Below, one piece after another: positions 637 through 49,267 of a stretch of 64,000 bases of DNA (its first letter is position 1; each line of letters begins with the position of its first letter). The position numbers were made by a program, and so were the translations under genes. The DNA comes from an uncultured Clostridia bacterium (GTDB taxonomy: Bacteria > Bacillota > Clostridia > Christensenellales > UBA1242), in contig CAMMFF010000001.1 in assembly GCA_946496065.1 (NCBI GenBank), forward strand, positions 191,681 to 255,680, in the 5' to 3' direction. The notes below the pieces were generated by a model. That model saw only the letters and a program-made list of their open reading frames with translations. It ran no database searches and was not told where the DNA came from.

Positions 637-705
637 ATGAAAAAATTTAGCATTGTGTTGGTGTCAGTTATGACAATTTTGCTGAGCAGCGTACTTATGG
701 CTTGC
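637..705 (+). other. lipoprotein-type signal peptide (lipobox-like LMAC, Cys23)
   Basis: KK n-region, 18-aa hydrophobic core, then L-M-A-C. Met at -2 is non-canonical. Confidence 0.6.
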
Positions 706-11907: not shown

Positions 11908-11960
11908 AAAAAGAGTATAAATAGAATGTGAAAAAATCAATTTATACTCTTTTTTTATTA
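11908..11960 (+). terminator. terminator-like hairpin (15-bp stem, 17-nt loop, T-tract) enclosing the GTG start of the next gene
   Basis: AAAAAGAGTATAAAT (11908-11922) is the exact reverse complement of ATTTATACTCTTTTT (11940-11954). The loop AGAATGTGAAAAAATCA contains GTG 11928. T-run at 11951-11956. Confidence 0.55.
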
Positions 11961-16867: not shown

Positions 16868-16878
16868 AAGGAGTGAGC

Positions 16879-22031: not shown

Positions 22032-22074
22032 AATTATAGATTTAGGTCTTTGCTAAATCAAGGAGAAATTGTAT

Positions 22075-25000
22075 ATGAAAAGAAAGTCAATTTTTTTTAC
22101 CTTGTTTGTTTTGATCTTTGGGTTTTGTGGAACCCTAAGTTATTTCAATTATGATTCGGGAGTAACTAGTGCAGTCAGTCAAGACGCAAGCGTTTGGGAT
22201 GGTGATTATGTTTCAAGCGAGAGCAATCTGACAGAAAGTGATTGGTTTAATGAAAACGGAAATGATTATTACATCAGAAGTGCCGCTGGACTTTCTTATT
22301 TTGCATACAGTGTCAATCATGGGACAAGCTTTAGAGATAAAAGAATTTATCTCGAAACCGATATTGATTTAAACAATCAAGAGTGGACACCTATTGGCAA
22401 TGGCGAAAATAATTTTCAAGGTTTGTTTCAAGGACAGGGCTATGCAATTTACAACTTGAAGATAAGCAAAGACAATTCTGGTTATGTTGGATTTTTTGGA
22501 AGTTTGACTGATTATTCTCGTGTTGACAATTTGCATCTTAAAAATGTAGATGTAAGTGTTACAGTTTCTTCTTCCGCAAGTGATTATTACATTGGAACGA
22601 TGGTTGGAAATTTCAACAATACTGGCAATACGGACAGAACTTACACCAACTCATACATAACAAATTGCTCAGTTGAAGGGGACATTACTGTGATTTCAAC
22701 TGTATCAGGGAAAAATTATTACATAGGCGGACTTGCTGGTTGCATCAAAAATGCGACAGTGAGAACTTCCAGCAGTGAAGTTGACATCACAACAACATCA
22801 TTGAGGGCGACAAACTTGAGAGTTGGTGGGTTGGCTGGTGAGGTGCAATTTTTGACACTTGCAGATTTTCATTACGATGGAAGCATCGATGTGACGTCTA
22901 CAACCACTTATGGCTATTTGGGTGGATTGATTGGTTTGGCTATTGGGAAAGACGCATCCAACTTGACCACAATTTCAAACGCTTATAGTTTTGGAGATAT
23001 GGTTTTAAACAATACTGGCAGCAGTTTTTATGTTGGTGGTTTGATTGGGAGAGTTGAAAATGCTTACTTTACGATAAATAATATATATCATTTCGGTGAC
23101 ATAGAGTCCAACATAAGTTCAAGTGGAACAAATTATGTCGGAGGCTTGATTGGACATTTGCAAAGTGCAAGTTCAGTTTACACAAAAGTCTTTGATGGTT
23201 TTTATGTTGGAGATATTAGCGGAAGGAATGTAACAATAAATTATCTCTATTCAATCAACAGCAATCTTGGGACATCTCAAATTCCTAATGTCGACGGATT
23301 GTATTATGATGTTGACCAAAAAGATGCAAGTGCGTCAGATGTTTCCAGTCAGATAGTAAACTTGGATGATATTGCTAAGACTAGAGATTTTTATGGAAAT
23401 GAAAGATATTGGACATCTGAGACATCTTGGGATTTTTCTTCGACAACATCTGGTTGGGGAATTTCTTCTGGAATCAACGAAGGATATCCATATTTGATTT
23501 TGACACACAATTTGGGAAATGCTAACAACGATTCGGATTATTCAGAAGAATCACCTTTGGAGGGAAATGGGACTGCAACTTCTCCATATTTGATCAAATC
23601 TGCAGGTGATTTGGGTTACGTTTCTTTCAATTTTGAAGCAGGAGCATATTATTCTCTTCAGAATGATATCGACTTGACTGGCAGAACTTGGCAACCAATT
23701 GGAACAACAGATTCTGCATTTAGTGGTGTGTTTGATGGAAATGGATACACAATTTATGGAATGACTTGCTCTTTGCAAGAACAATTCAGTTACCATGGTT
23801 TGTTTGGGGTAACTGAAAATGCAGTCATTAAAAACTTAAATATTAGAAACGTCCAATATATCAATCAAGGAAGTGAAGGAGCTGGTTATGTTGGAACGAT
23901 GGTTGCGTATGCTAAAGGTGATACATATTTGATTAACTGCACTGACAATGAATATGGTCAAACAGGGACAATGTCTGATGGAAGCAAGGTTTATGCTGTT
24001 GGCCGTGTTGAAAGCGCAAAGTCTGTTTATGTTTTCTATGGAAAATCATCAATCAACTTGATGGGAAATTTGATTCCAAATGGTGAATTCTATGGAAATA
24101 TTGATCTTTCTGGAACAAAATCAACAAGCGTTAATGAATCGGCAAAAATTTATTATGGATATGATATTGAGATTGATGGAAACGGTGGAACTTTCTATGA
24201 TTCAACCAAGACTGCTTATGCTGGGAAATATCATTTGTTAGTATTGCCACAAGGAGAGGAAAATAGAACAAATCCAAACTTCACTGGAGAGGCTGAAAGT
24301 GATGTTATAGATATTTCAGAGATTGATTCAACTTACGGCAAGGCTCTTCCTCAACTTTCACATTTGTTTGGGAAAACAGATACAATCATCAAAAGAGGAC
24401 ATAGAGCGCAAAACTATGTCTATAAATCAAATTCCGAAAACATGTTTTCAGATTCTCTTACTGAAAAGTTTGTAGAGTCCGCTGATACTAAAAATACAAC
24501 TATTAAAAACAACATTAACTCTTATAATTTCAAATATTATGTTAAAAATGAAAAAGGCGAGTTTGTGAAAGCAATCACTTATGATGAAAATGAAACATAT
24601 TATGAATTTGATACAAGTGCGGGGGCAGTGTTGACGATAAATTATTCTTCATCGCCTTTACTTGGGCTTGAAGTTGCTTGGCAAGTGTATGGATATGACC
24701 CTAGCAATCCTAGCGTTGTAGACAAGGACAATGCATTTCAGGTCATTGTGATTTATAATGGATATGAAAAAACCAATTTTTATGCTGAAGAAGGTCATAC
24801 ATCAACCACCTATCATCAAAACTCTGAGGTTAAACTGGATGAGAATGGATTGGTTTACAAAACTTTCTATATGGAGTATGACTCTTTCCTTTCAGACTAC
24901 CCAGAAATTTTTGAAATACCAGAATATATTGATTCGACAGGAAAAACAAAACTGTTAAGAAATGGGGATTTTGAAATTGCTGGCGTTTATGAATATTACA

Positions 25001-28000
25001 ATGACACAAATTCATTGTTCAAAAACGAAATTTTAAATTCTGCACCTTCCGAAAGTGAAGATGACGACAATCTTTATGCGTCAACAACATTGGTAAATTC
25101 AGTTTTGTCAAATGCTGATTATGAAGACAGCCAAGGAATCTATTATGCAAATCTTTACACTGAATGGAAAGGTGTAGAAAAAGATGCCGAGGATATGTAT
25201 AAGTTGACAATAGATTTCTCTACTGTTGGAACTTTTGCGGGAAAATTTGAGATTGCTGATGCGATTGAATCTGTCGTTTTGTCATACCATGGAAATACTC
25301 CAAATCCTTCTGAAGTGAAAGGGGTGGTTGAAAATAACTCTGTAACTTTCTATTTTGACACAATGTATAGTGATAGAATTGACAATTGGTTGCAAATTGA
25401 TGTCAAACTGAAGGTTGGTTATACTTCTGAAAATTTTGTTTTAAATAGTGACGAATATAATGAATCAATTGATTTGAATTTTGGAGAATTATCAGCAGAA
25501 CCGGTGAATAATGTAGAAGGTTATACTTATTCATATAACGAATCTGTTTATACATATGGCAGAAGAATTCAATTTAGAAATTTGTGTCAGGACTACACTT
25601 TGAATCTCACAATAAGAAGAGCACAAGTTTCAAATGATATAAGTATTGGAGAAGGTGTTTATTTTGGTCTTTCTCCAATGGTTGCGGGCTGGACGAACGT
25701 TTCAATGTTTGATTTTCAATCAAATTCTTTTGTCAACTTGCAATCAATGATCGACGAACAATTGAAAGATGAAAATCTTGATACAGTGAGAGACAGTTAT
25801 CTTTCTTCCACAAACACTTCAACAGAAAATCAATATGTAGGTTATGACTTTGTTGATAAAAGAGTTATGACTTCAAACGAAATTTATGATTCGTTTGAAA
25901 TCTCTGCAAACTTCTTTGATAAAGATGGAGAATTTGAGTCTGAAGGGAATTTACTTGAATTTGGACGTGTGTTGTTTAGATATGATTTCCAAAATGGAGA
26001 ATCAAGATATTTCATCTATGAAGGCAGAGAGGAAACAAGTGATGAAGAGGGGCAAAGAGTCACAAGATTGGTTATCTACTTGTATGAAATCAACTACTCG
26101 GCAGGTTTCAATAAAGACACATTAACAGCAGAAGTGGTGACAGATGAATTGGTTAGTCTTGTATATAAAAATGCCTATGAATATATTCTTAACTATTATA
26201 CAAACTCTACTTTTGCTTTTGTTTTCACAACAGATACAAATTCAACTGAATTTGACGATGTCACAAATGTTACGAATGATGGTTCTTTGACAGAAAGGGG
26301 TTCATCTGAACTTAGAGAAATAAAGCACAACGAAAATGTTGAGTGGTCGGAATCAGAGAAACATTTGACAAAAATTTCTATGACATTTGAAGATATGATC
26401 TATCTTGTTAATTCTTCCAATCAGGAAATAACCCTTATAAAGGTTGCGACGGTTTATACAAAGGCATTGTTCAGTTTCAAAGTTAAATATTTGGATGCTG
26501 ATGGTAATTTGGTTGACTTTACATCAAAAGAAGGAGAACCTCAAATTGCAAACAAGCCAACACTTTCTAGAACTAGCGGGGTCTATTCTGTTACATCTTC
26601 AGGAGAAGAAATTGAACTTACGATTACATCAACAAGATATTACAGATTCTTTGCAAACAGAGGAAGTCAGAACGAAACAAACAATGAAGACAAAGGTAAT
26701 GTTGTTCTTTACAATCAAGAAGACCATCGTGATGGTCAAATCTCGGTTGTTGACACAACAAGCACATTTAATATTCAAATTAATGTTTCAAATGCAAACA
26801 TTTATTCCGCTCAAGGTCTTGATGAAGATGATGCTAAAAGAATGAATGAAGCTTATGAAGATTCGTTTAATTCTTATAATGGTTTGTATCTTAACAACTC
26901 ATTGACAAGTTCTACAGATTTGATTTCAATAGAGAAAGGCTATTGGACGACTGATGCAAATGAGCAGTTTATTTATCAAGATGATGTTTATAAAATTAAA
27001 TTCAAATATCAAACTTCTGACAATGATTATGGTCTTCAACCAGGATATTACGAAACGATCATTGTTTGCACAGATGTTCTTTACAATATGGACTATGCAA
27101 CTAAATATGTTGATGCTGATATCAGTGTTGATGAACTTAAAGCAGGGAATATTGAACTCGTTGATGAAGTGAATTCTGAAATATCTACATCAATTTCTGT
27201 TAATGGTGAAACTTATGTTGCAAAAAATCCTACGATTAAATATCAAGACAGTGTGACCATTGAGACATATATGACAAACAAACTTTCTTATGAATTCTGG
27301 GGCTGGTTCATCAAGGGGTCAAATTATTCAAAATACATTGAAAAAGATGCCTCTCTTCCAACATCACCTATTCAAGGGAATTTGGCATCTTGGAACTTTG
27401 ATTATTACAGTCAATTCTTTGTTACAAGGGGAATGAATAACATAAATAAAAATGGTTCTGGAGAAGCAGATTATTCTGAGAATAATCCATACAACATCAC
27501 AATTTATGCTGTTTACATGAAGAAACAGACCACCATTACTCTTTCAAGTCAGGCTATTGTTTATGAAGAAAACGGAACAACCACAGAGGGAAGATATAGT
27601 GCTGGAAGTTTGGGATTGAATTTTTCTATACAACTTGACGAAAAATTTAAAGATGAAAATGGCTCGTCTATGACTAGCAGTATTCTTTACCAATATTTGT
27701 CAGCAGACCAATCTACAGGGGAGAATATCACAGGGCTCACAAATTTCAAATTTGTCATGAGTGGGGACAATGCAAATGGATATTATCTCTCAGGATATAG
27801 GCTTTATAAACAAAATGGAGAAGTGGCAACGGATATTGCTGGGGAAAACATTGAATCTGTTGGCAATAAGGGTGTTGATGTGTCAATACCAAGTGATTAC
27901 GGAATCGACTTATATGCCAAGATTAAAGAACTTGTTGAAGCTGGACAGACCAGTTTAAAATATGAATTTACAATTATTCCAATCATAAGACAAAAGACAG

Positions 28001-34000: not shown

Positions 34001-37000
34001 ATTTGAATGTTGGAACTTACAATGTTGTTATAAGTTCAGAAAATTCAACAAACTATGATTTGGCGTTGAATCCTGTTCAAATCAATGTGAAAGCATATGA
34101 TTTGACAATTGAATTGAGCGTCAGTGGAGAGATTTCTGTGGAATTTAATTCAACGGAAGCTCAATCTACACAATTCAGTTATCTTTATATGACATCACTT
34201 TATGAAAGTGTTGAAATTACTATGACAAGAGCAAGTGGAACTGCAATTGGATATTACAAAGTCTTGAGTGGAACTTCTCTTGACAGCAACTATAATGTTG
34301 TTTCTGTTTTGGACACAAGTGACCTTGGAGCATTCAGAATCACTCAAGCGAAAGAAAGATTGTATTTGCTTTTGAGTGACGAACAAACAGTTTCTGCTTC
34401 ATCAGGTGGCGACACTGCAACAATTGAATATGATGGAAATCTTTATGACAGTGTTTCTGTCGAAGAAAGAAGTGAAGGTTCTGGAGTTTACAGACTTGTG
34501 TTTACAAACTCTACAGACTCAGGCAAAAGACAACAATTTGATTTGAATTTCTACACATACGATATGGCAACTTCAACATACAACAAAACCGATGTGACTG
34601 TAAGTGGGCTTACAACAAACATTCAATTCTTGTATCCTACAACAGTTAAAAATGTTGGAACATATCAAATCTACGCAAGTGGAACAATCTCTGACAGTTA
34701 TGAAGTCAAGATGGGTAAAGATGGGGCAATTTACTGCTTCTATTTGAAGATCGAAAAGAAAGAACTTTATTTTTTGAACTCTGAACTTAGCAAAATTTTT
34801 GACAACAAAGATGCCATTTTTGAATATGCTGATGCAAGCGAAATATTGAGTGGAATTGTTGATGGCGAAGTGATAGGTTTGAATATGCAATTCACACAAG
34901 ATGGCGATGTTGTGAAATATGCTGGTGTCAATTATAACGTGGTTGCTGAAATTTTCGGTGACACAGTTTCAAACTATAATTTGAATTTGTCTGATGAAGA
35001 TGGAACAGCTCTCAATGCCACAATTTATCGTGCTGATATGACTTTCGTGGTCAACTCTCAATCATACACCTATGGCGATGATTTTGAACTTCAATACAAA
35101 TATCAAACAGATGTTGACCTTACTGACTACGACATGGGAAGATTGAGCATTCAGTTGGTTGCACCTGACACCGCATCATATTATTCAACCAGTGGTGCGT
35201 TGAAGGTGGGCGAATATGACATGATTTTGATCTTCAGTGCACAAGATTTCTCTATAAGTGGATATATTGTAGACAATCAGGAACAGGAAGAACTTACGGC
35301 AAAATTGACAATTGTTGCAAAAGAACTTCAACTTGTTGCAAAAGACATGAGTTTGCAAGAGGTGTTCACAAAGACCTATGATGCAACAAATGATGTCAAG
35401 ATTACTGACGATGAGGGCAATCTGTTGTTTGATGTTTCAGGAATAAATCAAGGAGAAGATGGAACTATTGACTCCGTTCGTGTCAACTCTGCATATTATG
35501 CAAATGAATATGTTGGCCAAGCAATTCAAATAAGTTTCGAATTGGCAGGTGAGGACAGCGGAAACTATATAATCTCTCCTTGGATGTATGGTGTGATTAA
35601 GGCAATCATTATTGGGCTTGAATTTGATTATCATGCAGATGGAAGCGATGTCACATCAAATGTTGACGACAATCAACTTCCAACATTGTCACAGCTTTCA
35701 TTCCCATTCATGTCAACATCATATTTGACAGCAAACTCTGCTTCAACATCAACAAATTCAGTTAAAAACTTCCCAACATCACTTACAGGAAAGACTGGTT
35801 ATGCATTTTTGAATTGGACAATGGATTTTGAAAACATCGGCAATGCATCTGTGGAACTTACATATCTCGAAGGACTTGTTCAGAGATTTGGACTTCAAAG
35901 TTCTTACGATGGCTCAATTTATTCAGTCGTTGTTGACAATGGAGAAAACACTGTCAGATTCTTGAATGAATTGTTGCTTGATGAAAATGATTTGATGGGA
36001 TATTATTATAAAAATCATTCCGATTTGAAATTTACATTCAATGCAAATTGGGATACAAACAAATACAGAATCACAATCATGCTTGCAGATGAATCTGGAA
36101 ACAGTGCAAGTTATGGTCAAGTGGAAATTGATGACGGTGACCCAGATACGGAAAACACCATTGTTACAACAAACTATTTGGGAGATTTTGACTATGACAG
36201 TTCTCTCACATTGAAAGCAACAGCAAACGAACACTGCAATTTCTATGGCTTCTACACCTCTGATGGAAGAAGATACACTGGAACGGAACCATTCATTTCA
36301 ATCACAAGAGATGGTGACGCGGAAGTGTTCACAATCACAAACATCAGACAAGTTTACAATTTGGTTGTCAGATTCACAACACAAAAAGTCAATGTTGTGT
36401 TTGATTTGAGTGAATATAATGACGCAGTTGTTGATTCGGACGATTTTGTTGATATTGGTGGCTCTCGTTATCAATGGTCAACTGATTATTTGACATTGCA
36501 AGACAAATTCTTGTCAGATTTGCCAGAGGTTCTCAGAGCTGGTTTTGAGGTGGTAAGTTTAAGCACAACGACAACAACTATTCAAAAAGACAATTTTGCG
36601 ACAACAAAAATTGTATCCTTACTTCCAGATTCGGACGATGAAACGGTGATTCTGACTTTGACGCCAAACTTTGAACCTGTTGGAGTTGTTGTCACTCTTG
36701 ACTATGGCTATGACAACATAGAGAAAGAGATATCCGTTCCTTATGGACAAGCATATCAAGATGCTGATGATTGGGAAGAAAACCCAACAAGAACAGGATA
36801 CACATTTGATGGCTGGTATAATTCTGCTGGACAAAGAGTTTATGGTGGAGACATTCTCGCCACAACAGAAGCTCACACTTTGACGGCACATTGGACAATC
36901 AACAAATATTCTCTTGAATTGAATTCTCCATTTGCGACAGTTTCAGATGCAAATGTAAACTTTGTGCCTTCAGGTTCAAACTATGTTGCAACTGACATTG

Positions 37001-40000
37001 AATATAACTTCAAAGTCACATTCAAAGTTATACCAAAAAGCGGTTATGAAATTTCTGCAGCTTGGTCGGAAGGTTTTGAGGTTGTTATCAACTCTGATAA
37101 AACTGCAAATGTGACCTTCACAATGCCTGCTGACAATGTGACATATCAATTGCCAGTTGTGGCAATCAAAAACACAATCACAATTCAAGGAGAACACCTT
37201 GGTGAAGTTCTTGCCTACGACATAACAGAAGAAGGAGAAACTCCACTTGATGTCACAGACAATCAGGTTGAAATTGAAACTGGAAAGAAATTGAAACTTG
37301 TTGTGTCTGCTGAAGTTGGATATGTTGTTCTTGACAACATAAATTTGGAAGGTGGCGAAGGTGTGGTTGTTGACAAAGTTGTTGAAAATGGTGTTATGAC
37401 AGCAACCTTTGAAGGGATAAACAGCGACTTGGTTGTCACATTCACCACTCAAGAAAGCAAAAATCAGATTACAATTTCTTTTGACGATTCGACGGTTGTT
37501 GAATCAATTGAAGTTGACGGAAGGACATACAATTCAGTTGATGAATTGCCAACATTTGAGGCAAGCACAAATTCAATATTCAGTTTCTATGTCAAATTCA
37601 AACATGGATACGCACTTGGCTCTTATGAATGTGAAGAATTTGTTGTGAACCATGAATTGATTGAAGATGGGGCTTATGTTGACTATTATTTGTTTGAACT
37701 TTCAGGCATAAGCACAGACGGAAGCATTTTGATTAATTCTGCTTTGGCCAAGTTTACACTGGAAATGGAAGTGATTTCATATGACGAAAACAAAGAGCAA
37801 GTTGACATTCCTGGAAACATTGCACTCGCAAATGGTTTGACTTCAGTTGAAGCGGAATATAATTCAACTGTCATCATAACCTATCAAGTTGCAGATCTTT
37901 ATAGTTTTGCAGGTTGGAGCAAGGACGGACAAAACATCTTCAGTTCAGAGGGTCGACTTACATACACAATCACACAAGATGAAACAATCTATGCAATTTT
38001 CTCAACTTTGAGATTTGATATTGATTTTGGAACTTATAATTATTACACCATTTATGATGAATACAATGATGCACAAAAGACAGAAACTGTTTACACAGAA
38101 ATTTCAGGAGGAAGATATTTTGATGCTGACACTGGAAACGAAATTTCCGGAATAGAACTTTACTATGGTTCAAACAAAACCATCACATACAGAGTTCCAA
38201 CGGGATATATGTATTATGGTTATGGATACAGAAACGGTGAAGACTTTGTTTATCTTGAAATTGAAGAAAAGATTGACAGTGAAGTTGAAATCAATATTTC
38301 AAGTTTGTTGTTGAATGAAAACAACACAGAATTAAAGATCTATATTGTTGTGAAAGCCTACAGTTTGAATGTGGAATTTGAAACAAAAATAGACATTGAC
38401 GGAACAAGAGAACAAGATATTGATGTTGGTTACATTTCCCTTCAAGATTCTGATGGAAATGATGTCAACAGATATGGTTACGTTGACGGAACAAGAGTTC
38501 ATTACTCTGAAAATGACTTCTCAAATGGTCAAGTTTTGAGCAATAAACACTTTGAAGTTGTGGCATACACAGGCGATGTGATTTATCTCAAAGCAAAGAT
38601 TTTGAAAGAAGGTTACAAATTCTCGTCAATTGTGGCAAACAGACAAGACATTTTGATTTCAAAGCTTTCAGAGAATGACGAATACATCTTCTTTGAAATC
38701 AGCAATTTGGTTGGTGGAGTTGATGATATCTACATCGAAGTCTTGTTTAAACCAGTCATCAATGTGATTAATATGTCCTTCACAAACAACAATCTTAAGG
38801 TTGATGGCGGTGCATTCACATTTAACATTTCAGATGACAATAAGAACAAAATTTGGACATCTGGTAGAGAATATTCTTCTGTTGTTGTTTCTGCTTACAC
38901 GGACAGTTATTTTGAAGTGACCGCATTCATTCGTGCTGGATATTATGTGAACAGTTATGATTTGCAAATTGAAGACAGTGCAAACATCATTGTTTCTGAC
39001 AGCATTTCTTATGAAGCTCTCAAAGTTACTGATTCGGGATACACAGGAAAGATAACTTTCAAAGTTGCGAACTATCTGGGAGTTTCAAGCATTGTCATTG
39101 GAGTTAAGCCTTTGACATACACTGTTGCTCTCATGGAAGACACCAATTTGCTTGCAACCATTGACAATGTAAGTTTCAATTCTGCATTGAATTTGACAGA
39201 ATATAACGCTTCAAACATTACGATTGTTGATGAAAGAGTTTATTTCTTGAACGGAAAATTGAAAGTTGATTTGCAAAAAGCTCAACACAATTTTGAAGGA
39301 TACTTCACATATCAAAATGGAGCTGGTGTTCAATACATCAACTCAGAAGGAAATGCAGTAAACACATGGCAAGAAAGTGGATATGTTTTGAACACCCTCA
39401 CTTCAAAATATGAATTGAGCGAAAATGCAAGCGTTGATCCAGAGACAGGAAAAATCACAATCAAACTTTATCTGTATTGGTCATATCTCAAGACAAGAAT
39501 AAGTTTTGAATTTGTTCCTGGCATCAACACAAACTACACAGCTCAAGACATGGTAAGTGGTGTGGACTTTTCAAACTCTTGGTTCTATGAAACCGCTCCA
39601 CTTTATATTGAAGTTTCATTCAATACAGATATTCACATCACAGCTCCAGAGATTGAGGGCTACAAATTCTATAAGTTTGTCATCAGTCAGAAAAATGCAA
39701 GCGGAACTTGGCTCACAGATGTGACATCGTTCTCAAGTGATATTCCTTGGTCAACAAACGAATATGATAGAATTGTGGAATGTAACATTCAAGTGATTTA
39801 TTTCGCGAAAGTTGATGTAACAACATTTGGTGGTGAAGGGACTTACAATATCTATCAAGAATCAAGCGATACACAAGCAAAAGTGTTGTTGCAAGAAGGT
39901 TATGTTGACACTTCAAAAGAGTTTTCAATTGAAGCAGTCCCTGGAGAAGGTTATGAATTCTTGCGTTGGACAAATTCAACAACTGGGCAATCAACGTTTG

Positions 40001-41202
40001 ACAAGACAATGACTTTGAAAATTTCTCAAAAGACAAATCTTGTCATGAATCTGCAAGGTCAAACTGTAAAACTGAATTTTGAAGATTATGACACCACATT
40101 TGGTCAGATGACTAATGCCACGGTTCAATCTTTGGACAACAGTTATAAGTCATACAGGTTGGGCGGATATAGCGGAGACGACTTCTTGAAAACTCTCACA
40201 GAAATTGATGTCAGAGTTGGAGACCAAGTGACCTTTGTGCTCAGTGTTGACTTTGGCTTTGGCATCAAATGGAACAGAACAGACATCACTTTTGTTGAAT
40301 TTACTGGGAATATGTATTATTTCACAATGACAATTTCATCAGAAAGCGCTGGACAGACTCTGGACATTATTCCAACATTTGAAGATGAGATTTTGGCAAT
40401 CTATGTTTCAGGCAGTTTTGTTGAAGAAGACATTTCTGACAATGCGATAGACTACAACAATGTTGGCATGGCCGGATATGTGACATATAATGGTCAAAGG
40501 ATTTCATTTGTAAGTTGCGAGGAAGGTCAAGAAATCAGAATTGTCACAGTGACAAATGATAGATATGAAATCGCAAGCATAACAATCAAAAACTATGACA
40601 ACACCTTTGACAATATGAACGATTTCTTCACAGAAGAAGGAGTGATTGTTCTTTCAACAGATTTCATGGAACACAACAACATTGTTGGAACTGTTCAGAT
40701 TTCAATTGAGTATAGACGTTTGCTTTGGAACGAAGAAATGATTTCCGTAGATGCTTTTGAAGGAAAAGGAACTTCAAGAAGTCCTTACCAGATTTCTACA
40801 GTTGAAGATTTGATTTTGATGATGCGTTATGTCAACAGCGGAACATTCAATTCTGAAGGAATCAAATACAAAGACTGCTTCTTCATTTTGACATCAGATT
40901 TGCAGTTAAATTCAAAATTCTGGACGCCAATTGGAACTTCTGCAAACTCATTTAACGGACATTTCAATTTCAATAATCATAAGATTACTGGAGTATACAC
41001 GGCATACTTCTACAACCCAGTTTCATACAACGGATTGTTTGGTGTGCTTGGAGCAAATGCAGAAATTGTTGAAAACTCAGATTCTTTGTGGTATGTCTAT
41101 TTGATTATTGGCTTGGTTGCTCTGCTCATATTGCTTCTTGTAATTTTGATTTTGGTTAACAGAAAACGCAAGAAACAAAGAGAAGAACTTTCAAAAAGGT
41201 AA
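22075..41202 (+). CDS. giant (~6,375 aa) membrane-anchored mosaic surface protein; putative adhesin
   Basis: Single uninterrupted 19.1-kb ORF. ATG 22075 lies 8 nt after AGGAGA; the track's TTG 22069 is only 2 nt from the SD. N-terminal signal/anchor KRKSIFFTLFVLIFGFCGTL. The body is built from GLUG-like, Listeria-Bacteroides-type, YDG/MBG-like and InlB-B-like modules. C-terminal TM plus KR tail, no LPXTG. Confidence 0.9.
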   Translation: MKRKSIFFTLFVLIFGFCGTLSYFNYDSGVTSAVSQDASVWDGDYVSSESNLTESDWFNENGNDYYIRSAAGLSYFAYSVNHGTSFRDKRIYLETDIDLNNQEWTPIGNGENNFQGLFQGQGYAIYNLKISKDNSGYVGFFGSLTDYSRVDNLHLKNVDVSVTVSSSASDYYIGTMVGNFNNTGNTDRTYTNSYITNCSVEGDITVISTVSGKNYYIGGLAGCIKNATVRTSSSEVDITTTSLRATNLRVGGLAGEVQFLTLADFHYDGSIDVTSTTTYGYLGGLIGLAIGKDASNLTTISNAYSFGDMVLNNTGSSFYVGGLIGRVENAYFTINNIYHFGDIESNISSSGTNYVGGLIGHLQSASSVYTKVFDGFYVGDISGRNVTINYLYSINSNLGTSQIPNVDGLYYDVDQKDASASDVSSQIVNLDDIAKTRDFYGNERYWTSETSWDFSSTTSGWGISSGINEGYPYLILTHNLGNANNDSDYSEESPLEGNGTATSPYLIKSAGDLGYVSFNFEAGAYYSLQNDIDLTGRTWQPIGTTDSAFSGVFDGNGYTIYGMTCSLQEQFSYHGLFGVTENAVIKNLNIRNVQYINQGSEGAGYVGTMVAYAKGDTYLINCTDNEYGQTGTMSDGSKVYAVGRVESAKSVYVFYGKSSINLMGNLIPNGEFYGNIDLSGTKSTSVNESAKIYYGYDIEIDGNGGTFYDSTKTAYAGKYHLLVLPQGEENRTNPNFTGEAESDVIDISEIDSTYGKALPQLSHLFGKTDTIIKRGHRAQNYVYKSNSENMFSDSLTEKFVESADTKNTTIKNNINSYNFKYYVKNEKGEFVKAITYDENETYYEFDTSAGAVLTINYSSSPLLGLEVAWQVYGYDPSNPSVVDKDNAFQVIVIYNGYEKTNFYAEEGHTSTTYHQNSEVKLDENGLVYKTFYMEYDSFLSDYPEIFEIPEYIDSTGKTKLLRNGDFEIAGVYEYYNDTNSLFKNEILNSAPSESEDDDNLYASTTLVNSVLSNADYEDSQGIYYANLYTEWKGVEKDAEDMYKLTIDFSTVGTFAGKFEIADAIESVVLSYHGNTPNPSEVKGVVENNSVTFYFDTMYSDRIDNWLQIDVKLKVGYTSENFVLNSDEYNESIDLNFGELSAEPVNNVEGYTYSYNESVYTYGRRIQFRNLCQDYTLNLTIRRAQVSNDISIGEGVYFGLSPMVAGWTNVSMFDFQSNSFVNLQSMIDEQLKDENLDTVRDSYLSSTNTSTENQYVGYDFVDKRVMTSNEIYDSFEISANFFDKDGEFESEGNLLEFGRVLFRYDFQNGESRYFIYEGREETSDEEGQRVTRLVIYLYEINYSAGFNKDTLTAEVVTDELVSLVYKNAYEYILNYYTNSTFAFVFTTDTNSTEFDDVTNVTNDGSLTERGSSELREIKHNENVEWSESEKHLTKISMTFEDMIYLVNSSNQEITLIKVATVYTKALFSFKVKYLDADGNLVDFTSKEGEPQIANKPTLSRTSGVYSVTSSGEEIELTITSTRYYRFFANRGSQNETNNEDKGNVVLYNQEDHRDGQISVVDTTSTFNIQINVSNANIYSAQGLDEDDAKRMNEAYEDSFNSYNGLYLNNSLTSSTDLISIEKGYWTTDANEQFIYQDDVYKIKFKYQTSDNDYGLQPGYYETIIVCTDVLYNMDYATKYVDADISVDELKAGNIELVDEVNSEISTSISVNGETYVAKNPTIKYQDSVTIETYMTNKLSYEFWGWFIKGSNYSKYIEKDASLPTSPIQGNLASWNFDYYSQFFVTRGMNNINKNGSGEADYSENNPYNITIYAVYMKKQTTITLSSQAIVYEENGTTTEGRYSAGSLGLNFSIQLDEKFKDENGSSMTSSILYQYLSADQSTGENITGLTNFKFVMSGDNANGYYLSGYRLYKQNGEVATDIAGENIESVGNKGVDVSIPSDYGIDLYAKIKELVEAGQTSLKYEFTIIPIIRQKTATVTFHSGTGEGNPGDGKKGEVFNVDGENSTNTYFTTTEIYFGRILYLDVELTGYLNGSDTAEEIVVDDLFNSRTGYSRLSNNYWTSSTGNTLNGSLLELSTTYFNAVDTFADIHFYRIWKANTYTITFMPNGGTFLGIDSITITTTYDSKVIVYNSSSMNSSQLGNITNITNVSRIGYQDVGWSLTDDNDTAGQLVFDEDLGLVLGQEYSLFDADGNYINAGNATVYAVWVESPYTIKVMLNGANSYTMQSQKTDIQADEQKEFGIEFNIRYGDTFENLFVGDGEENKIKIGEIVPVREGYSFAGIYAVSGSRRELITDATVFTTSILSCSQTMTEDIVLTLYASWVFDTSYLSLTLTSNILPELTYNAGQQTVYLADYFKLGHEETGYVVNLDENGRDMSIGLSPNMNSSILLTLTSSTATVDNSRDMSFKVRNVGSYSVNLNITVSDASTYLNLGNVFEINYQFTISVREADISTTITDDVYLENIKRIMEPFSTEEFNAKLDSCSSLDALTTLMQSEDATIVGEAGEELNMQVYKYIMVKYYMLLDSNDGTNHRTYKEWTYADYLAFMAEENNASNAENIVSNLYYFDFYDYTITDNNMEIAGYDNLGIVSDAVQNVGLEIGIDKVVISSGSVSTMNPKNVYEMRVYLRNVVSSVDSLANYIVQYDSNGDAYITAGTAYLLPQVFEIQNLEETKSAYFDSSIENKEVEWAGNRESVEYDGKTYYLIENNLYISAGLYTSSNGDLLTDTVYSYTDNTNYLYFDDVSILLQSTVDGSISYTNVSSYFKLTLGEDDVFTILNTNGVANVTVTAKYLTNDDGMISFETVEDIMASELLRITRVYYNISGTEESVYDADGLDVGSYSSGGVLVYEITENNSNNVSIFLSPTVTKVVFTSVSLDITDYVSLYKWADSPVYNVDGTMDNQGSMTLDMSTIETSEDGLNEIYYYAIYTDLVLVKYNLNFPSSYNPSSSGTATMKLGVSTASDLAIPSENGFIISSLKAKTPTGETLDYTEIFTGADNGSGKTYVGITPETKHAIVTLEAKWEVEEIEYTQILEEYKTAVNSFTSLTVDEIVAIYNSNTNLYEYSYVWYFNDNQVATGQIMRLAGQGSYEESGNYKLVITATLNPEFSVSLDDTTKTSTQIELNFTLEFMKNLVDKVTFPDAETVVKTYDGREHLTDWSVNIDYYAYSYVRDDYEETVTTQQLYYVTTGSIYFKIFFNGGEIYSMKNAGEYRITVCFDEGMFDLSGIDTSNLTFIYTINPYSVDLSAYDFTGEKQFNAVEPSMTREVYLANENVSLQLRRAAGEDVGQYDLYFEDVLQSYKKNYNFTYGDVILFEDGELTAEASTTSIGKFNITTSGTLRLSYTVTALNPVAIEADYSGLGYSLKLTDDFRLQIFNGSVMFKEFSLNLFDVATGANISSDEILNILRSKISDLQPRFFNTQNYETAYDSMTYTYNFVMGDEISKYYTNIEFDSGYTFTINKITIDVSKFVFEKTYDGETTVYIDTNGSEIDLDTYSGVYITAVYATAHAGSNIRVDLTLQRKDSSDNLSNYSLTASYVVGKINKLDATMSFSMSKDVFTYGEVSLSNISSFINGYVIMNSENELVTDLLVSGYYTISYNLPATVTTNERGFIYKGNYTINVNADFQDFNMTLNRPSFEVQALQYTRQISENYIQISVLDEVQEYYEDVLTIQSTGDVLTLKLVAEGLTPGETASTGNYDLILAETSFLNGSIIVSVNDDNNGFQVLFATETVYVKIDDASILTNTYNGQTFVVAGDVSKTMSVTNGATNKTSTLSFFLKVEGPDGEIVEQALGDGEISFANLAINFENGSGEISEAGNYKLNILATCNEYTNVVFAEDYYLAVEKVEIDVFQFTFEKTYDGSASYIISEFNEKVVDDVISILVQFDSANAGSGKTASLYLSGADMNNYVLSAVSGTGTINKATATVELTKTDLVYGEVSLTQPLTYSVKVGGANLLPSQYNLTLDIQQAQYSSAGYLNVGTYNVVISSENSTNYDLALNPVQINVKAYDLTIELSVSGEISVEFNSTEAQSTQFSYLYMTSLYESVEITMTRASGTAIGYYKVLSGTSLDSNYNVVSVLDTSDLGAFRITQAKERLYLLLSDEQTVSASSGGDTATIEYDGNLYDSVSVEERSEGSGVYRLVFTNSTDSGKRQQFDLNFYTYDMATSTYNKTDVTVSGLTTNIQFLYPTTVKNVGTYQIYASGTISDSYEVKMGKDGAIYCFYLKIEKKELYFLNSELSKIFDNKDAIFEYADASEILSGIVDGEVIGLNMQFTQDGDVVKYAGVNYNVVAEIFGDTVSNYNLNLSDEDGTALNATIYRADMTFVVNSQSYTYGDDFELQYKYQTDVDLTDYDMGRLSIQLVAPDTASYYSTSGALKVGEYDMILIFSAQDFSISGYIVDNQEQEELTAKLTIVAKELQLVAKDMSLQEVFTKTYDATNDVKITDDEGNLLFDVSGINQGEDGTIDSVRVNSAYYANEYVGQAIQISFELAGEDSGNYIISPWMYGVIKAIIIGLEFDYHADGSDVTSNVDDNQLPTLSQLSFPFMSTSYLTANSASTSTNSVKNFPTSLTGKTGYAFLNWTMDFENIGNASVELTYLEGLVQRFGLQSSYDGSIYSVVVDNGENTVRFLNELLLDENDLMGYYYKNHSDLKFTFNANWDTNKYRITIMLADESGNSASYGQVEIDDGDPDTENTIVTTNYLGDFDYDSSLTLKATANEHCNFYGFYTSDGRRYTGTEPFISITRDGDAEVFTITNIRQVYNLVVRFTTQKVNVVFDLSEYNDAVVDSDDFVDIGGSRYQWSTDYLTLQDKFLSDLPEVLRAGFEVVSLSTTTTTIQKDNFATTKIVSLLPDSDDETVILTLTPNFEPVGVVVTLDYGYDNIEKEISVPYGQAYQDADDWEENPTRTGYTFDGWYNSAGQRVYGGDILATTEAHTLTAHWTINKYSLELNSPFATVSDANVNFVPSGSNYVATDIEYNFKVTFKVIPKSGYEISAAWSEGFEVVINSDKTANVTFTMPADNVTYQLPVVAIKNTITIQGEHLGEVLAYDITEEGETPLDVTDNQVEIETGKKLKLVVSAEVGYVVLDNINLEGGEGVVVDKVVENGVMTATFEGINSDLVVTFTTQESKNQITISFDDSTVVESIEVDGRTYNSVDELPTFEASTNSIFSFYVKFKHGYALGSYECEEFVVNHELIEDGAYVDYYLFELSGISTDGSILINSALAKFTLEMEVISYDENKEQVDIPGNIALANGLTSVEAEYNSTVIITYQVADLYSFAGWSKDGQNIFSSEGRLTYTITQDETIYAIFSTLRFDIDFGTYNYYTIYDEYNDAQKTETVYTEISGGRYFDADTGNEISGIELYYGSNKTITYRVPTGYMYYGYGYRNGEDFVYLEIEEKIDSEVEINISSLLLNENNTELKIYIVVKAYSLNVEFETKIDIDGTREQDIDVGYISLQDSDGNDVNRYGYVDGTRVHYSENDFSNGQVLSNKHFEVVAYTGDVIYLKAKILKEGYKFSSIVANRQDILISKLSENDEYIFFEISNLVGGVDDIYIEVLFKPVINVINMSFTNNNLKVDGGAFTFNISDDNKNKIWTSGREYSSVVVSAYTDSYFEVTAFIRAGYYVNSYDLQIEDSANIIVSDSISYEALKVTDSGYTGKITFKVANYLGVSSIVIGVKPLTYTVALMEDTNLLATIDNVSFNSALNLTEYNASNITIVDERVYFLNGKLKVDLQKAQHNFEGYFTYQNGAGVQYINSEGNAVNTWQESGYVLNTLTSKYELSENASVDPETGKITIKLYLYWSYLKTRISFEFVPGINTNYTAQDMVSGVDFSNSWFYETAPLYIEVSFNTDIHITAPEIEGYKFYKFVISQKNASGTWLTDVTSFSSDIPWSTNEYDRIVECNIQVIYFAKVDVTTFGGEGTYNIYQESSDTQAKVLLQEGYVDTSKEFSIEAVPGEGYEFLRWTNSTTGQSTFDKTMTLKISQKTNLVMNLQGQTVKLNFEDYDTTFGQMTNATVQSLDNSYKSYRLGGYSGDDFLKTLTEIDVRVGDQVTFVLSVDFGFGIKWNRTDITFVEFTGNMYYFTMTISSESAGQTLDIIPTFEDEILAIYVSGSFVEEDISDNAIDYNNVGMAGYVTYNGQRISFVSCEEGQEIRIVTVTNDRYEIASITIKNYDNTFDNMNDFFTEEGVIVLSTDFMEHNNIVGTVQISIEYRRLLWNEEMISVDAFEGKGTSRSPYQISTVEDLILMMRYVNSGTFNSEGIKYKDCFFILTSDLQLNSKFWTPIGTSANSFNGHFNFNNHKITGVYTAYFYNPVSYNGLFGVLGANAEIVENSDSLWYVYLIIGLVALLILLLVILILVNRKRKKQREELSKR
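22192..23230 (+). other. N-terminal head 1 plus GLUG-like beta-helix rungs
   Basis: DIDLNNQEWTPIGNGENNFQGLFQGQGYAIYNLKI...GFFG, followed by YIGGLAGCIKNATV, RVGGLAGEVQF, YLGGLIGLAIG, YVGGLIGRVENAYF and YVGGLIGHLQS. Confidence 0.6.
23563..23860 (+). other. head module copy 2
   Basis: GNGTATSPYLIKSAGDL...DIDLTGRTWQPIGTTDSAFSGVFDGNGYTIYGM...GLFGVTENAVIKNLNI. Confidence 0.6.
27990..29050 (+). repeat. Listeria-Bacteroides (Flg_new)-type repeats
   Basis: Copies end in the G(Y/F).F.GW / ...Y(A)(V/S)W signature: RIGYQDVGWSL...ATVYAVWV and REGYSFAGIYA...LTLYASWV. Further copies at ~30870-31150 and 36690-36900 (RTGYTFDGWYNSAGQRV...HTLTAHWT). Confidence 0.55.
31480..35630 (+). repeat. block of YDG/MBG-like modules
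   Basis: Repeated (V/F)(E/T)KTYDG...N(Y)xL...G.I.K and TYG(E/D) signatures, e.g. VKTYDGREHL, FEKTYDGETTVY...LSNYSLTASYVVGKINK, FEKTYDGSASY...MNNYVLSAVSGTGTINK and FTKTYDATNDV. This is the pattern annotated as YDG/MBG domains in other giant bacterial adhesins. Confidence 0.5.
36050..40400 (+). repeat. array of ~90-aa divergent InlB-B-repeat-like beta-sandwich modules
   Basis: Periodic '..A.P..GY.F..W..' cores: ANEHCNFYGFY, PKSGYEISAAW, AEVGYVVLDNI, FKHGYALGSY, LYSFAGWSKDG, LKEGYKFSSIV, IRAGYYVNSY, IEGYKFYKFV and PGEGYEFLRWT. Confidence 0.5.
40750..41088 (+). other. head module copy 3, next to the membrane anchor
   Basis: GKGTSRSPYQISTVEDL...SDLQLNSKFWTPIGTSANSFNGHFNFNNHKITGVY...GLFGVLGANAEIVEN. 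Confidence 0.6.
41089..41199 (+). other. C-terminal TM helix plus Lys/Arg-rich cytoplasmic tail
   Basis: WYVYLIIGLVALLILLLVILILV followed by NRKRKKQREELSKR. No LPXTG-type sorting motif precedes it. Confidence 0.75.
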
Positions 41203-41231
41203 TCCAAATATTTTCAACAATAAATCAATAT

Positions 41232-41280
41232 AATAAAGCAAGGAGGCGGTTATGCAATATTTCCTTGCTTTATTTTTTCT
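41232..41280 (+). terminator. terminator-like hairpin (13-bp stem, 17-nt loop, T-tract) enclosing the uppP SD and start codon
   Basis: AATAAAGCAAGGA (41232-41244) is the exact reverse complement of TCCTTGCTTTATT (41262-41274). The loop holds ATG 41252. TTTT follows. Confidence 0.55.
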
Positions 41281-49186: not shown

Positions 49187-49267
49187 AAAATTCTCCCTTA
49201 TCAATAATAGGAGTTTTTCTTCTTGTGGTCAAATAAATTAAGGATAATTATGAAAAATTTAAACCTT

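What the first reader, a model, noticed from the sequence alone, without database searches (positions are those of the whole stretch)
22075..41202. 19.1-kb single ORF: a ~6,375-aa mosaic, membrane-anchored surface protein
One uninterrupted reading frame covers 30% of the window. Reading the translation, I see the following order. (a) A signal/anchor. (b) Two 'GxGTxxSPYxI ... W(T/Q)PIG ... FxGxFxGxGYxIxxL ... GLFG' heads with GLUG-like GG(L)(A/I)G rungs. (c) About 1,400 aa with no signature I recognise (~nt 23900-27900). (d) Listeria-Bacteroides-type repeats. (e) A ~1,400-aa YDG/MBG-like block. (f) About 15-20 InlB-B-like ~90-aa modules. (g) A third head. (h) A TM helix plus KR tail. There is no LPXTG, S-layer or choline-binding anchor. 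The nucleotide copies of the repeats are diverged, which argues against assembly collapse and for long-term maintenance. Proteins of this size are rare in bacteria, and I do not know this domain combination and order as a described family.
Basis: partly seen in the sequence, partly recalled or inferred. Interest (0 to 1): 0.7.

Follow-up and report, generated by a model that had tools for sequence, protein, structure and literature searches.

The report
Giant membrane-anchored surface protein gene
This is a real, conserved 19-kb gene for a 712-kDa cell-surface fibre, anchored by its tail and tipped with beta-helix "heads". It probably lets a tiny-genome gut bacterium stick to something; the kind of protein is familiar, but this family is unnamed and about a third of it matches nothing known.

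Summary
One open frame runs from ATG 22075 (good RBS) to the stop at 41202 and encodes 6,375 aa. It is intact in at least 12 independent metagenome assemblies. Against a 97%-identical strain, dN/dS is 0.10.

The protein has these parts:
- an N-terminal signal;
- two GLUG-type right-handed beta-helix modules (AF2 pLDDT 81; best PDB matches are 3n6z and the IgA1-protease N-terminal domain);
- 1,060 aa and 800 aa of sequence with no detectable relatives outside a four-lineage family;
- Listeria-Bacteroides/InlB-B-like modules, about 15 of them in the C-terminal array;
- at least 3 YDG-like units;
- a third, cap-only "head" directly before a single TM helix and a KR tail.

There is no LPXTG and no HEXXH.

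The host is most likely a Candidatus Caccovivens-like member of family UBA1242 (Christensenellales). That family has genomes of about 1 Mb and is proposed to be partner-dependent. The gene would then be about 1.7% of the genome.

Best reading: a Sec-exported, tail-anchored fibrillar adhesin. It is a new member of a known kind, the giant Gram-positive surface proteins. The ligand and the two dark regions are unresolved. Interest is moderate.

The parts
22060..22065 (+). Ribosome-binding site AAGGAG, 9 nt before the ATG
   Evidence: Read directly from the sequence. It supports ATG 22075 over the TTG at 22069 listed.
22075..41202 (+). Whole CDS: 6,375 codons plus stop; 712 kDa, pI 4.2
   Evidence: Intact in independent assemblies. 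dN/dS 0.10 against L005.
22075..22182 (+). Signal peptide region, aa 1-36 (MKRK, hydrophobic aa 5-24, possible AxS cleavage sites before the conserved NASVWDG). Cleavage was not tested.
   Evidence: Kyte-Doolittle scan. Orthologue sequences.
22246..23508 (+). Beta-helix module 1, aa ~58-478: cap (WTPIG...FQGLFQGQGYAIYNL...GFFG), five GGL(A/I)G GLUG rungs, and a closing 'WDF...W...GYPYL' element
   Evidence: Pfam Glug 36.9 bits. Motif positions. 365 GLUG-family homologues. Family consensus. AF2 pLDDT 81 with a beta-helix, and Foldseek matches to 3n6z and IgA1 protease.
23557..23994 (+). Beta-helix module 2, aa ~495-640: cap GNGTATSPYLI...WQPIG...FSGVFDGNGYTIYGM...GLFG, followed by a short helix without canonical rungs
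   Evidence: Self-BLAST, HMM, AF2 model.
23995..27174 (+). Unassigned region 1, aa 641-1700. It is the most variable and indel-rich part between orthologues (20-45% identity).
   Evidence: No Pfam or NCBIfam hit. Only 4 relatives in 1.84e9 representatives. No PDB sequence match. AF2 pLDDT 41. Foldseek found nothing. Conservation profile.
27175..29064 (+). Listeria-Bacteroides (Flg_new)-like modules, aa ~1701-2330; about 4-5 modules by motif
   Evidence: Sub-threshold Pfam Flg_new at aa ~2100. hhalign 88-92% for aa 2201-2350. Module profile hit at 2211-2319, iE 2.9e-5.
29065..31464 (+). Unassigned region 2, aa 2331-3130. It is well conserved among orthologues (47-62% over the block).
   Evidence: No Pfam hit. 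A profile of 3 orthologues found nothing in the protein index or in PDB sequences.
31465..35634 (+). YDG-like block, aa 3131-4520. Units at aa ~3455-3555, 3840-3940 and 4420-4520 are interspersed with other beta-rich segments.
   Evidence: Internal repeats 3446-3600 against 3830-3976. hhalign against the Pfam YDG domain of P0005: 85%, P 6e-6. No direct Pfam hit.
35635..40719 (+). Array of about 15 Flg_new/Flg_new_2 (InlB B-repeat-like) modules of 74-131 aa (aa 4664-6215), preceded by a conserved linker module (aa 4521-4663)
   Evidence: Pfam Flg_new 36.4 bits, Flg_new_2 42.8 and 31 bits, TIGR02543 39.9 bits. Leave-one-out test, 10 of 15 pass. The joint profile picks out Flg_new-annotated proteins.
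40720..41085 (+). Third GLUG-type cap, aa 6216-6337 (GKGTSRSPYQI...WTPIG...FNGHFNFNNHKITGV...GLFG). It has no rungs and abuts the TM helix.
   Evidence: Self-BLAST. GLUG-family HMM iE 4e-18. Conserved in P0121 and P0122.
41086..41157 (+). Single C-terminal transmembrane helix, aa 6338-6361
   Evidence: Hydropathy 3.7. Coordinates.
41158..41199 (+). Basic cytoplasmic tail NRKRKKQREELSKR, aa 6362-6375
   Evidence: Near-identical in P0121 and P0122.

Best explanation
The gene encodes a Sec-exported, type-I (tail-anchored) fibrillar surface protein of 712 kDa.

The N-terminal signal takes the chain across the membrane. The single C-terminal helix stops transfer and leaves a 14-residue basic tail in the cytoplasm. 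About 6,300 acidic, beta-rich residues then form a long stalk of small domains: about 15 InlB-B/Flg_new-like modules nearest the membrane, then YDG-like units and lineage-specific segments.

The stalk holds out two GLUG-type right-handed beta-helix modules and a fast-evolving ~1,000-aa region at its far end. Those distal parts most likely bind a ligand, probably a glycan or surface polymer on a partner or host cell, or mucus. That makes the protein an adhesin of a genome-reduced gut Christensenellales bacterium (family UBA1242, Candidatus Caccovivens-like).

Shown here: gene integrity and purifying selection, signal/TM topology features, the beta-helix fold class of the heads, the domain types, the conservation gradient, and restriction to a small family.

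Inferred: the extended fibre geometry, the binding function and the ligand.
For: - Integrity. The 6,375-aa gene is called in 4 assemblies next to trpS and in 7 more next to uppP. The last 9,951 nt are stop-free in 8 assemblies, with 0-14 differences.
- Selection. A 97.2%-identical MAG keeps the frame through 2 in-frame indels and gives dN/dS 0.10.
- Topology. Hydrophobic aa 5-24, a TM helix at aa 6338-6361 followed by a KR tail, and no LPXTG.
- Heads. Pfam Glug; 365 'GLUG motif-containing' homologues carrying PF05342 and PF07581; AF2 pLDDT 81 and pTM 0.76. Foldseek top hits are 3n6z (E 1.2e-6) and the pneumococcal IgA1 protease (prob 1.0). Beta-helix adhesins PfbA 4mr0 and L. reuteri SRRP 5nxk are also in the list.
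- Stalk. Flg_new, Flg_new_2 and TIGR02543 score above their thresholds. Module tests. YDG hhalign 85%.
- Gradient. Orthologues are collinear. They are 60-89% identical in the membrane-proximal half and 20-45% identical, with indels, in aa 800-1900.
- No catalytic motif. No HEXXH and no enzyme family in Pfam or NCBIfam.
- Host context. A BipA at least 90% identical to the window's is named Candidatus Caccovivens sp.. That genus is GTDB UBA11517 in family UBA1242, with a type genome of 34.2% GC and 1.1 Mb (PMC8035907). UBA1242 is proposed to be an obligate symbiont or parasite (PMC12306168).
- The same design (distal beta-solenoid, rod, C-terminal anchor) is described for A. kunkeei Giant1-4 (PMC12863079) and, with a C-terminal TM anchor, for Embp/Ebh (PMC7587433).
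Against: - There is no direct evidence of expression, surface location or binding.
- The ligand is unknown.
- 29% of the protein (aa 641-1700 and 2331-3130) has no assignable fold and could hide an activity. AF2 on the first block failed (pLDDT 41).
- Within the species, even the distal region is under purifying rather than diversifying selection (dN/dS 0.04-0.21).
- The beta-helix fold is shared with many enzymes (PL6 lyases, epimerases, tailspikes), so the fold alone does not prove binding.
- A cap placed right at the membrane (aa 6216-6337) is not explained by a simple 'tip binds, stalk spaces' model.
- Signal-peptide cleavage was not tested.
- The taxonomic placement rests on one named cluster member plus GC content.
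Confidence: 0.6

Rival explanations
1. Envelope structural protein. The fibre mainly builds a protective or spacing coat (S-layer-like fuzz, or a cell-cell or cell-wall scaffold) rather than recognising a specific ligand.
For: The membrane-proximal two-thirds is strongly conserved. Selection within the species is purifying throughout. A GLUG cap sits at the membrane or wall level. The gene lies directly upstream of uppP, a cell-wall lipid-carrier phosphatase, with no terminator between them. A second giant lipoprotein is nearby.
Against: No SLH, SlpA or other self-assembly domain reaches threshold; SlpA scores 18.6 bits against a cut-off of 23. The distal beta-helix heads and the variable distal block fit a recognition role. 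One membrane-tethered chain per molecule is an expensive way to build a coat.
Confidence: 0.15
2. Surface-displayed carbohydrate-active enzyme. The beta-helix modules, or an unassigned block, are polysaccharide lyases or hydrolases held out on a stalk to feed a metabolically poor cell.
For: Foldseek lists PL6 alginate lyases, chondroitinase B, GH87, polygalacturonases and phage tailspike depolymerases after the IgA1-protease-type hits. The unassigned regions could hide an activity.
Against: Those matches are weak: E 1e-4 to 0.1, TM 0.11-0.25, rmsd 12-24 A. They are typical of generic beta-helix resemblance. The best matches are the non-catalytic GLUG/M26_N type. No CAZy-type, peptidase or lyase family appears in Pfam or NCBIfam. 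There is no HEXXH.
Confidence: 0.1
3. Doubly tethered loop. The N-terminal hydrophobic segment is an uncleaved signal-anchor, so both ends stay in the membrane and the protein forms a giant loop. The middle of the chain, not the N-terminus, is then the most distal part.
For: The hydrophobic segment ends at aa ~24, but the first conserved mature motif (NASVWDG) starts only at aa ~37. This would place head 1/2 and head 3 side by side at the membrane.
Against: AxS-type sites precede NASVWDG in all four relatives. The conservation gradient (variable near the N-terminus, conserved near the C-terminus) fits a single C-terminal tether better. In most GLUG homologues the caps follow ordinary signals.
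Confidence: 0.1
4. Assembly artefact or decaying pseudogene read as one ORF.
For: One distant relative (L015) carries a single in-frame TAA after codon 1747.
Against: The same 6,375-aa call appears in at least 11 independent assemblies. The 8 loci that could be checked have no stops. There are no nucleotide repeats that could collapse. dN/dS is 0.10 and the indels are in-frame. Full-length orthologues share 43-62% identity.
Confidence: 0.02

Closest known systems
GLUG-motif / Peptidase_M26_N-type beta-helix domain proteins (e.g. Bacteroides ovatus BACOVA_03286, PDB 3n6z; N-terminal domain of S. pneumoniae IgA1 protease, PDB 6xja/6xjb/7uvl)
   Same: The cap motif GxGTxxSPYxI...WxPIG...FxGxFDGNGxxIxNL...GLFG, the GGLxG rungs and the closing WDF...YPxL element. 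The predicted right-handed beta-helix. Tandem duplication of the module is also common in the family.
   Different: There is no M26 catalytic domain and no HEXXH. Homologues in the index are about 400-1,100 aa, whereas here the modules cap a 6,375-aa chain. A third copy is reduced to the cap and placed at the membrane.
Staphylococcal Embp / Ebh giant matrix-binding proteins
   Same: Very large size (Embp is 1 MDa). An N-terminal export signal and a predicted C-terminal transmembrane anchor instead of LPXTG. A fibre-like repetitive body with an adhesin role (PMC7587433).
   Different: Embp and Ebh are alpha-helical FIVAR/GA repeat rods with DUF1542 and a YSIRK signal. None of these is detected here. 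This protein is beta-rich with highly diverged modules.
Apilactobacillus kunkeei Giant1-5 (especially Giant4)
   Same: 3,000-8,000-aa extracellular proteins with an N-terminal beta-solenoid head followed by a long rod (in Giant4, an array of beta-sheet domains) and a C-terminal attachment region. They make up several percent of a small genome (PMC12863079).
   Different: Their solenoid is SRRP-like and their C-terminus is DUF5776/SH3b-like and wall-associated. Here the heads are GLUG/M26_N-like and the anchor is a TM helix. No sequence relationship was detected.
Giant (10,000-30,000 aa) Clostridia proteins from mammalian gut metagenomes with Listeria-Bacteroides repeats
   Same: Class Clostridia, gut origin, use of Listeria-Bacteroides repeat domains, and a proposed adhesion role (bioRxiv 10.1101/2023.11.21.568195).
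   Different: Those are larger and are reported with YG repeats, dockerins and LRRs. No relationship to this family was tested or found. This one comes from a ~1-Mb-genome lineage.
Beta-solenoid adhesins PfbA (4mr0) and L. reuteri SRRP binding region (5nxk)
   Same: A right-handed beta-helix used as the distal binding module of a Gram-positive surface protein. Both appear in the Foldseek list.
   Different: The matches are weak (E 6.5e-3 and 6e-2; TM 0.16-0.34). They have LPXTG anchoring and serine-rich repeats, which are absent here.

Membership tests
GLUG-motif beta-helix domain family (Pfam PF07581 Glug, with PF05342 Peptidase_M26_N-type cap) | Pfam Glug match above the gathering score | tested here: met
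   36.9 bits against a cut-off of 20.5, 2 stretches, aa 214-239 best.
GLUG-motif beta-helix domain family (Pfam PF07581 Glug, with PF05342 Peptidase_M26_N-type cap) | Significant sequence homology to annotated family members over cap plus rungs | tested here: met
   365 hits at E<=1e-5, best 5.6e-32, many covering 80-90% of aa 1-640. They are named 'GLUG motif-containing protein' and carry PF05342 and/or PF07581. The cap maps to Peptidase_M26_N positions 179-250 in P0001. The window protein itself gives no direct PF05342 hit.
GLUG-motif beta-helix domain family (Pfam PF07581 Glug, with PF05342 Peptidase_M26_N-type cap) | Right-handed parallel beta-helix fold like solved members | tested here: met
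   AF2 pLDDT 81, pTM 0.76. Foldseek: 3n6z E 1.2e-6, TM(target) 0.54; IgA1 protease chains at prob 1.0.
M26 IgA1-specific metalloendopeptidases (ZmpA/B/C) | Zinc-metalloprotease catalytic domain with HEXXH | tested here: not met
   There is no HE..H anywhere in the 6,375 aa. No peptidase family appears in Pfam or NCBIfam.
Listeria-Bacteroides repeat / InlB B-repeat proteins (PF09479 Flg_new, PF18998 Flg_new_2, TIGR02543) | HMM matches above curated thresholds | tested here: met
   Flg_new 36.4 bits (cut-off 27). Flg_new_2 42.8 and 31 bits (cut-off 23.6). TIGR02543 39.9 bits (cut-off 20.95).
Listeria-Bacteroides repeat / InlB B-repeat proteins (PF09479 Flg_new, PF18998 Flg_new_2, TIGR02543) | All ~15 modules of aa 4664-6215 belong to the repeat family | tested here: inconclusive
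   Only 3 modules reach Pfam significance. Pairwise hhalign of tiles mostly fails. Leave-one-out HMM: 10 of 15 score above all controls. The joint profile's top hits among 120 unrelated proteins are Flg_new/Flg_new_2-annotated ones. No structure models were available.
YDG domain (PF18657) | Match to the Pfam model or to a bona fide member | tested here: inconclusive
   No hmmscan hit at E<=1. hhalign of 9 aligned units against the PF18657 domain of P0005 gives 85% probability, P 6e-6, 73 columns, with negative controls. The match to P0114 is weak (9%).
MBG domains (Pfam MBG / MBG_2 / MBG_3) | Match to the Pfam models | tested here: not met
   No hit at E<=1 in any tile. No exemplar was available for a profile-profile test, so remote similarity is not excluded.
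Sortase-anchored (LPXTG) Gram-positive surface proteins / MSCRAMMs | C-terminal LPXTG motif before the hydrophobic segment | tested here: not met
   A regex for LP.T[GAS] finds none. The TM helix follows the third cap directly.
Embp/Ebh family | FIVAR / GA / DUF1542 repeats and a YSIRK signal | tested here: not met
   None was detected in Pfam. Only the C-terminal TM anchoring principle is shared (PMC7587433).
S-layer / SLH / choline-binding anchored proteins | SLH, SlpA or choline-binding (CW_binding_1) repeats | tested here: not met
   The only hit is a sub-threshold SlpA fragment of 20 residues (18.6 bits against a cut-off of 23). No SLH or CW_binding repeat was found.

The most novel reading that the evidence does not exclude
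The protein is the partner-attachment organ of an obligately dependent, ~1-Mb-genome gut Firmicute (family UBA1242). It would be analogous to the giant surface proteins of Patescibacteria, DPANN archaea and Omnitrophota. Its two lineage-restricted blocks (1,860 aa) would be new folds that recognise the partner cell. With the neighbouring 3,746-aa lipoprotein it would take up about 2.8% of the genome.
Probability: 0.3. Interest if true: 0.7.

Novelty: new member of a known kind. Interest (0 to 1): 0.42.

Why it matters
UBA1242 bacteria are widespread in animal and human guts, have never been cultured, and are proposed to live off other cells. No attachment machinery has been described for them (PMC12306168 mentions only 'hypothetical membrane-bound proteins').

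A conserved 712-kDa tail-anchored fibre with beta-helix heads, costing about 1.7% of a ~1.1-Mb genome, is the obvious candidate. It gives a concrete handle for finding the partner or ligand: recombinant heads, antibodies, peptides for metaproteomics.

It also adds about 1,900 aa of sequence with no relatives among 1.84 billion representative proteins, which are targets for structure discovery.

If it is just one more gut adhesin, the value is mainly better annotation of a recurrent 'hypothetical protein'.

Tried and rejected
- Index searches with aa 601-2000 and with a 3-orthologue profile of aa 2330-3140 found nothing. All 120 hits listed are 1,117 aa or shorter. Neither the protein itself nor its 6.2-kaa orthologues were returned. 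The index probably lacks giant proteins, so these nulls are weaker than they look. The exhaustive 1.84e9-representative search is the reliable null for aa 620-1819.
- Genome and metagenome contig scans found only the same species (L005 and L006, 96%).
- AF2 on aa 640-1720 with a 5-sequence alignment gave pLDDT 41. Its Foldseek hits (binary-toxin pores, E>=0.027, TM<=0.07) are meaningless and were discarded.
- PDB sequence searches for aa 1-642, aa 3100-4550, A1 and A3 found nothing.
- Single-seed iterative HMMs and 3-sequence tile HMMs recovered only the caps and one YDG pair.
- An all-against-all hhalign run was too slow. The reduced run against three templates recognised few modules.
- IgA1 protease, LPXTG adhesin, S-layer protein and Embp-family membership were considered and rejected on their defining features (see membership tests).
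- Relationship to the neighbouring 3,746-aa ORF was rejected at the sequence and profile level.
- No Rfam family was found in the window.
Full report
**Observation.** The window holds one open frame from 22069 (TTG) to 41202. The ATG at 22075 has AAGGAG 9 nt upstream and is the likely start, which gives 6,375 aa (712 kDa, pI 4.2). GC content (33-38%) and GC skew match the flanking housekeeping genes. Those genes are bipA, dnaB, gltX and trpS upstream and uppP, a P-type ATPase, holB and others downstream, all on the same strand. The gene contains no tandem repeats and no direct nucleotide repeats longer than 42 nt.

**Is it real?** Yes.
- The same 6,375-aa product is called next to an identical TrpS in four independent assemblies.
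- It is called next to an identical UppP in seven more. An eighth is cut by a contig end.
- The last 9,951 nt of the gene are stop-free in all eight loci, with 0-14 nucleotide differences.
- A MAG of a related strain (L005, 97.2% nt identity) keeps the frame open over 5,328 codons despite two indels, both in-frame. It gives dN/dS = 0.10 overall and 0.03-0.21 in 400-codon windows where there is enough divergence. The segment without any known signature is included in that range.
- An exhaustive HMMER scan of 1.84 billion representative proteins with aa 620-1819 found just four relatives: two proteins of 6,235 and 6,208 aa (42-43% identity), a 1,747-aa protein and a 520-aa fragment.
- The two giants are collinear with the window protein from the signal peptide to the ...KRKKxREELSK tail.
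- The 1,747-aa relative is the first part of a longer homologue interrupted by a single in-frame TAA. The same frame continues and matches aa 1896-3598 at 33% identity.

**Anatomy.**
- aa 1-36: signal region (MKRK, hydrophobic aa 5-24).
- aa ~58-478: a complete GLUG-type module. It has a cap, five GGL(A/I)G rungs at aa 218-360, and a closing WDF...GYPYL element.
- aa ~495-640: a second cap with a short helix.
- The three caps (the third at aa 6229-6331) are mutually homologous at 30-39% identity.
- The first 640 aa have 365 homologues at E<=1e-5. Where these are named, most are called 'GLUG motif-containing protein'; many carry Pfam PF05342 and most carry PF07581. In one of them the cap corresponds to positions 179-250 of Peptidase_M26_N.
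- An AF2 model of aa 25-640 built on 41 sequences is confident (pLDDT 81, pTM 0.76) and is a right-handed beta-helix.
- Its best PDB matches are the 'putative IgA1 protease' BACOVA_03286 (3n6z, E 1.2e-6) and the pneumococcal IgA1 protease (prob 1.0). Weak, generic beta-helix matches follow: PL6 lyases, PfbA, SRRP and tailspikes.
- The protein has no HEXXH and no catalytic family hit, so it is not an M26 protease.

**The body of the protein.**
- aa 641-1700 has no Pfam, NCBIfam or PDB-sequence match, and no relatives beyond the four-member family. AF2 with five sequences failed (pLDDT 41), and the Foldseek output for that model is noise.
- aa ~1701-2330 contains Flg_new-like modules, supported only weakly.
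- aa 3131-4520 contains an internal duplication (3446-3600 against 3830-3976) with K(T)YDG-type units. These give no Pfam hit. As a 9-sequence alignment they match a bona fide PF18657 YDG domain at 85% hhalign probability over 73 columns, with clean negative controls. MBG similarity could not be shown.
- aa 4664-6215 can be cut into 15 modules of 74-131 aa. Three reach Pfam or TIGRFAM thresholds for Flg_new or Flg_new_2. Ten of 15 score above all shuffles and unrelated controls in a leave-one-out HMM test. The joint profile picks out exactly the Flg_new/Flg_new_2-annotated proteins among 120 unrelated sequences.
- The third cap (aa 6216-6337) abuts the only TM helix (aa 6338-6361), which is followed by NRKRKKQREELSKR.
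- There is no LPXTG, SLH, SlpA or choline-binding anchor.

**Conservation gradient.** Against the two full-length orthologues, identity is 60-89% and 43-80% in the C-terminal, membrane-proximal half. It falls to 20-45%, with many indels, in aa ~800-1900 near the free end. That is the pattern expected of a tethered fibre whose distal part meets a variable ligand or an immune or phage pressure. Within the species, however, selection is purifying everywhere.

**Host.**
- The closest MAG is labelled 'uncultured Catabacter sp.', which NCBI maps to Christensenella, order Christensenellales.
- A BipA at least 90% identical to the window's is named Candidatus Caccovivens sp..
- That genus is GTDB UBA11517, family UBA1242, order Christensenellales. 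Its type genome is 34.2% GC and 1.1 Mb (PMC8035907), which matches the window's 35% GC.
- UBA1242 genomes are mostly under 1 Mb and lack most biosynthetic pathways and standard transporters. The authors propose an obligate symbiont or parasite lifestyle (PMC12306168).
- On that basis the gene is about 1.7% of the genome. With the neighbouring 3,746-aa lipoprotein ORF the figure is about 2.8%.
- This placement is an inference from one named cluster member plus composition.

**Mechanism.** The best-supported reading is a Sec-exported, C-terminally tail-anchored fibrillar adhesin. The stalk of small beta-rich modules projects the twin beta-helix heads and the variable block away from the cell, where they bind a glycan or surface polymer of a partner, host or mucus.

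Topology features, fold class, domain types, the gradient and selection are shown here. Fibre geometry, binding and ligand are inferred.

The rivals are:
- a structural coat;
- a displayed carbohydrate-active enzyme (only generic beta-helix resemblance, no catalytic signature);
- a doubly tethered loop, if the signal is not cleaved;
- an artefact or pseudogene (contradicted by the assembly, selection and orthologue evidence above).

The membrane-adjacent third cap is unexplained.

**Comparison with what is known.**
- The design 'signal - distal beta-solenoid - long rod - C-terminal anchor' is established for A. kunkeei Giant1-4 (PMC12863079).
- C-terminal TM anchoring of a giant adhesin is predicted for Embp/Ebh (PMC7587433).
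- Giant Clostridia gut proteins with Listeria-Bacteroides repeats have been reported (bioRxiv 10.1101/2023.11.21.568195).
- The protein is a member of the GLUG and Flg_new domain families at domain level. It fails the defining features of M26 proteases, LPXTG adhesins, S-layer proteins and Embp.

As a whole it belongs to a small unnamed family of four divergent lineages. I file it as a new member of a known kind. Interest is moderate, raised somewhat by the reduced-genome host and the ~1,900 aa of orphan sequence.

Noticed in passing
window 637-11877 (+): A second giant ORF of 3,746 aa. It has a lipoprotein-type signal (...LLSSVLMAC), no significant Pfam hits, and no sequence or profile similarity to the 6,375-aa protein. 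Its last ~350 aa begin with a cap-like GNGTQDSPYRIINVEQF motif followed by beta-helix-like rungs, but the match to the GLUG-family HMM is not significant (iE 1.2). This mirrors the big protein: N-terminal lipid anchor, C-terminal head.
   Followed up: partly
L015 5380-5500 (NCBI GCA_054291705.1, JAZPIX010000019.1): A divergent relative of the giant gene (30-33% identity, GC 39%) has one in-frame TAA after codon 1747. The same frame continues for at least 1,701 more codons homologous to aa 1896-3598. It could be a nonsense mutation, a sequencing error or read-through; this was not resolved.
   Followed up: partly
window 41203-41251: Only 49 nt separate the giant gene's stop from uppP (bacA), which has its own AAGGAGG. 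I saw no terminator hairpin or T-run in this gap (by eye; the terminator scan was not run here). The giant gene and the undecaprenyl-pyrophosphate phosphatase gene may be co-transcribed.
   Followed up: no
window 40720-41085: The third GLUG-type cap lacks rungs and sits immediately before the TM helix. It is conserved at 62-81% in the orthologues. Its role at the membrane or wall level is unexplained.
   Followed up: partly
whole window; L005: The taxon labels disagree. The closest MAG is 'uncultured Catabacter sp.', while a BipA at least 90% identical is 'Candidatus Caccovivens sp.'. The window's 35% GC fits Caccovivens/UBA1242 (34.2% GC, 1.1 Mb).
   Followed up: partly
window 11928-12782, 16873-17691, 17704-18786, 47301-47954, 53185-54456 (all +): Five ORFs of 217-423 aa among the housekeeping genes have no Pfam match at the thresholds used.
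   Followed up: no
window 48005-49204 (-): A 399-aa protein matches Pfam F420_ligase (CofE-like, E 9e-55), with the match spread over the whole length. This is unexpected in a fermentative, genome-reduced Firmicute. It may be a nitroreductase-fused or non-F420 homologue.
   Followed up: no
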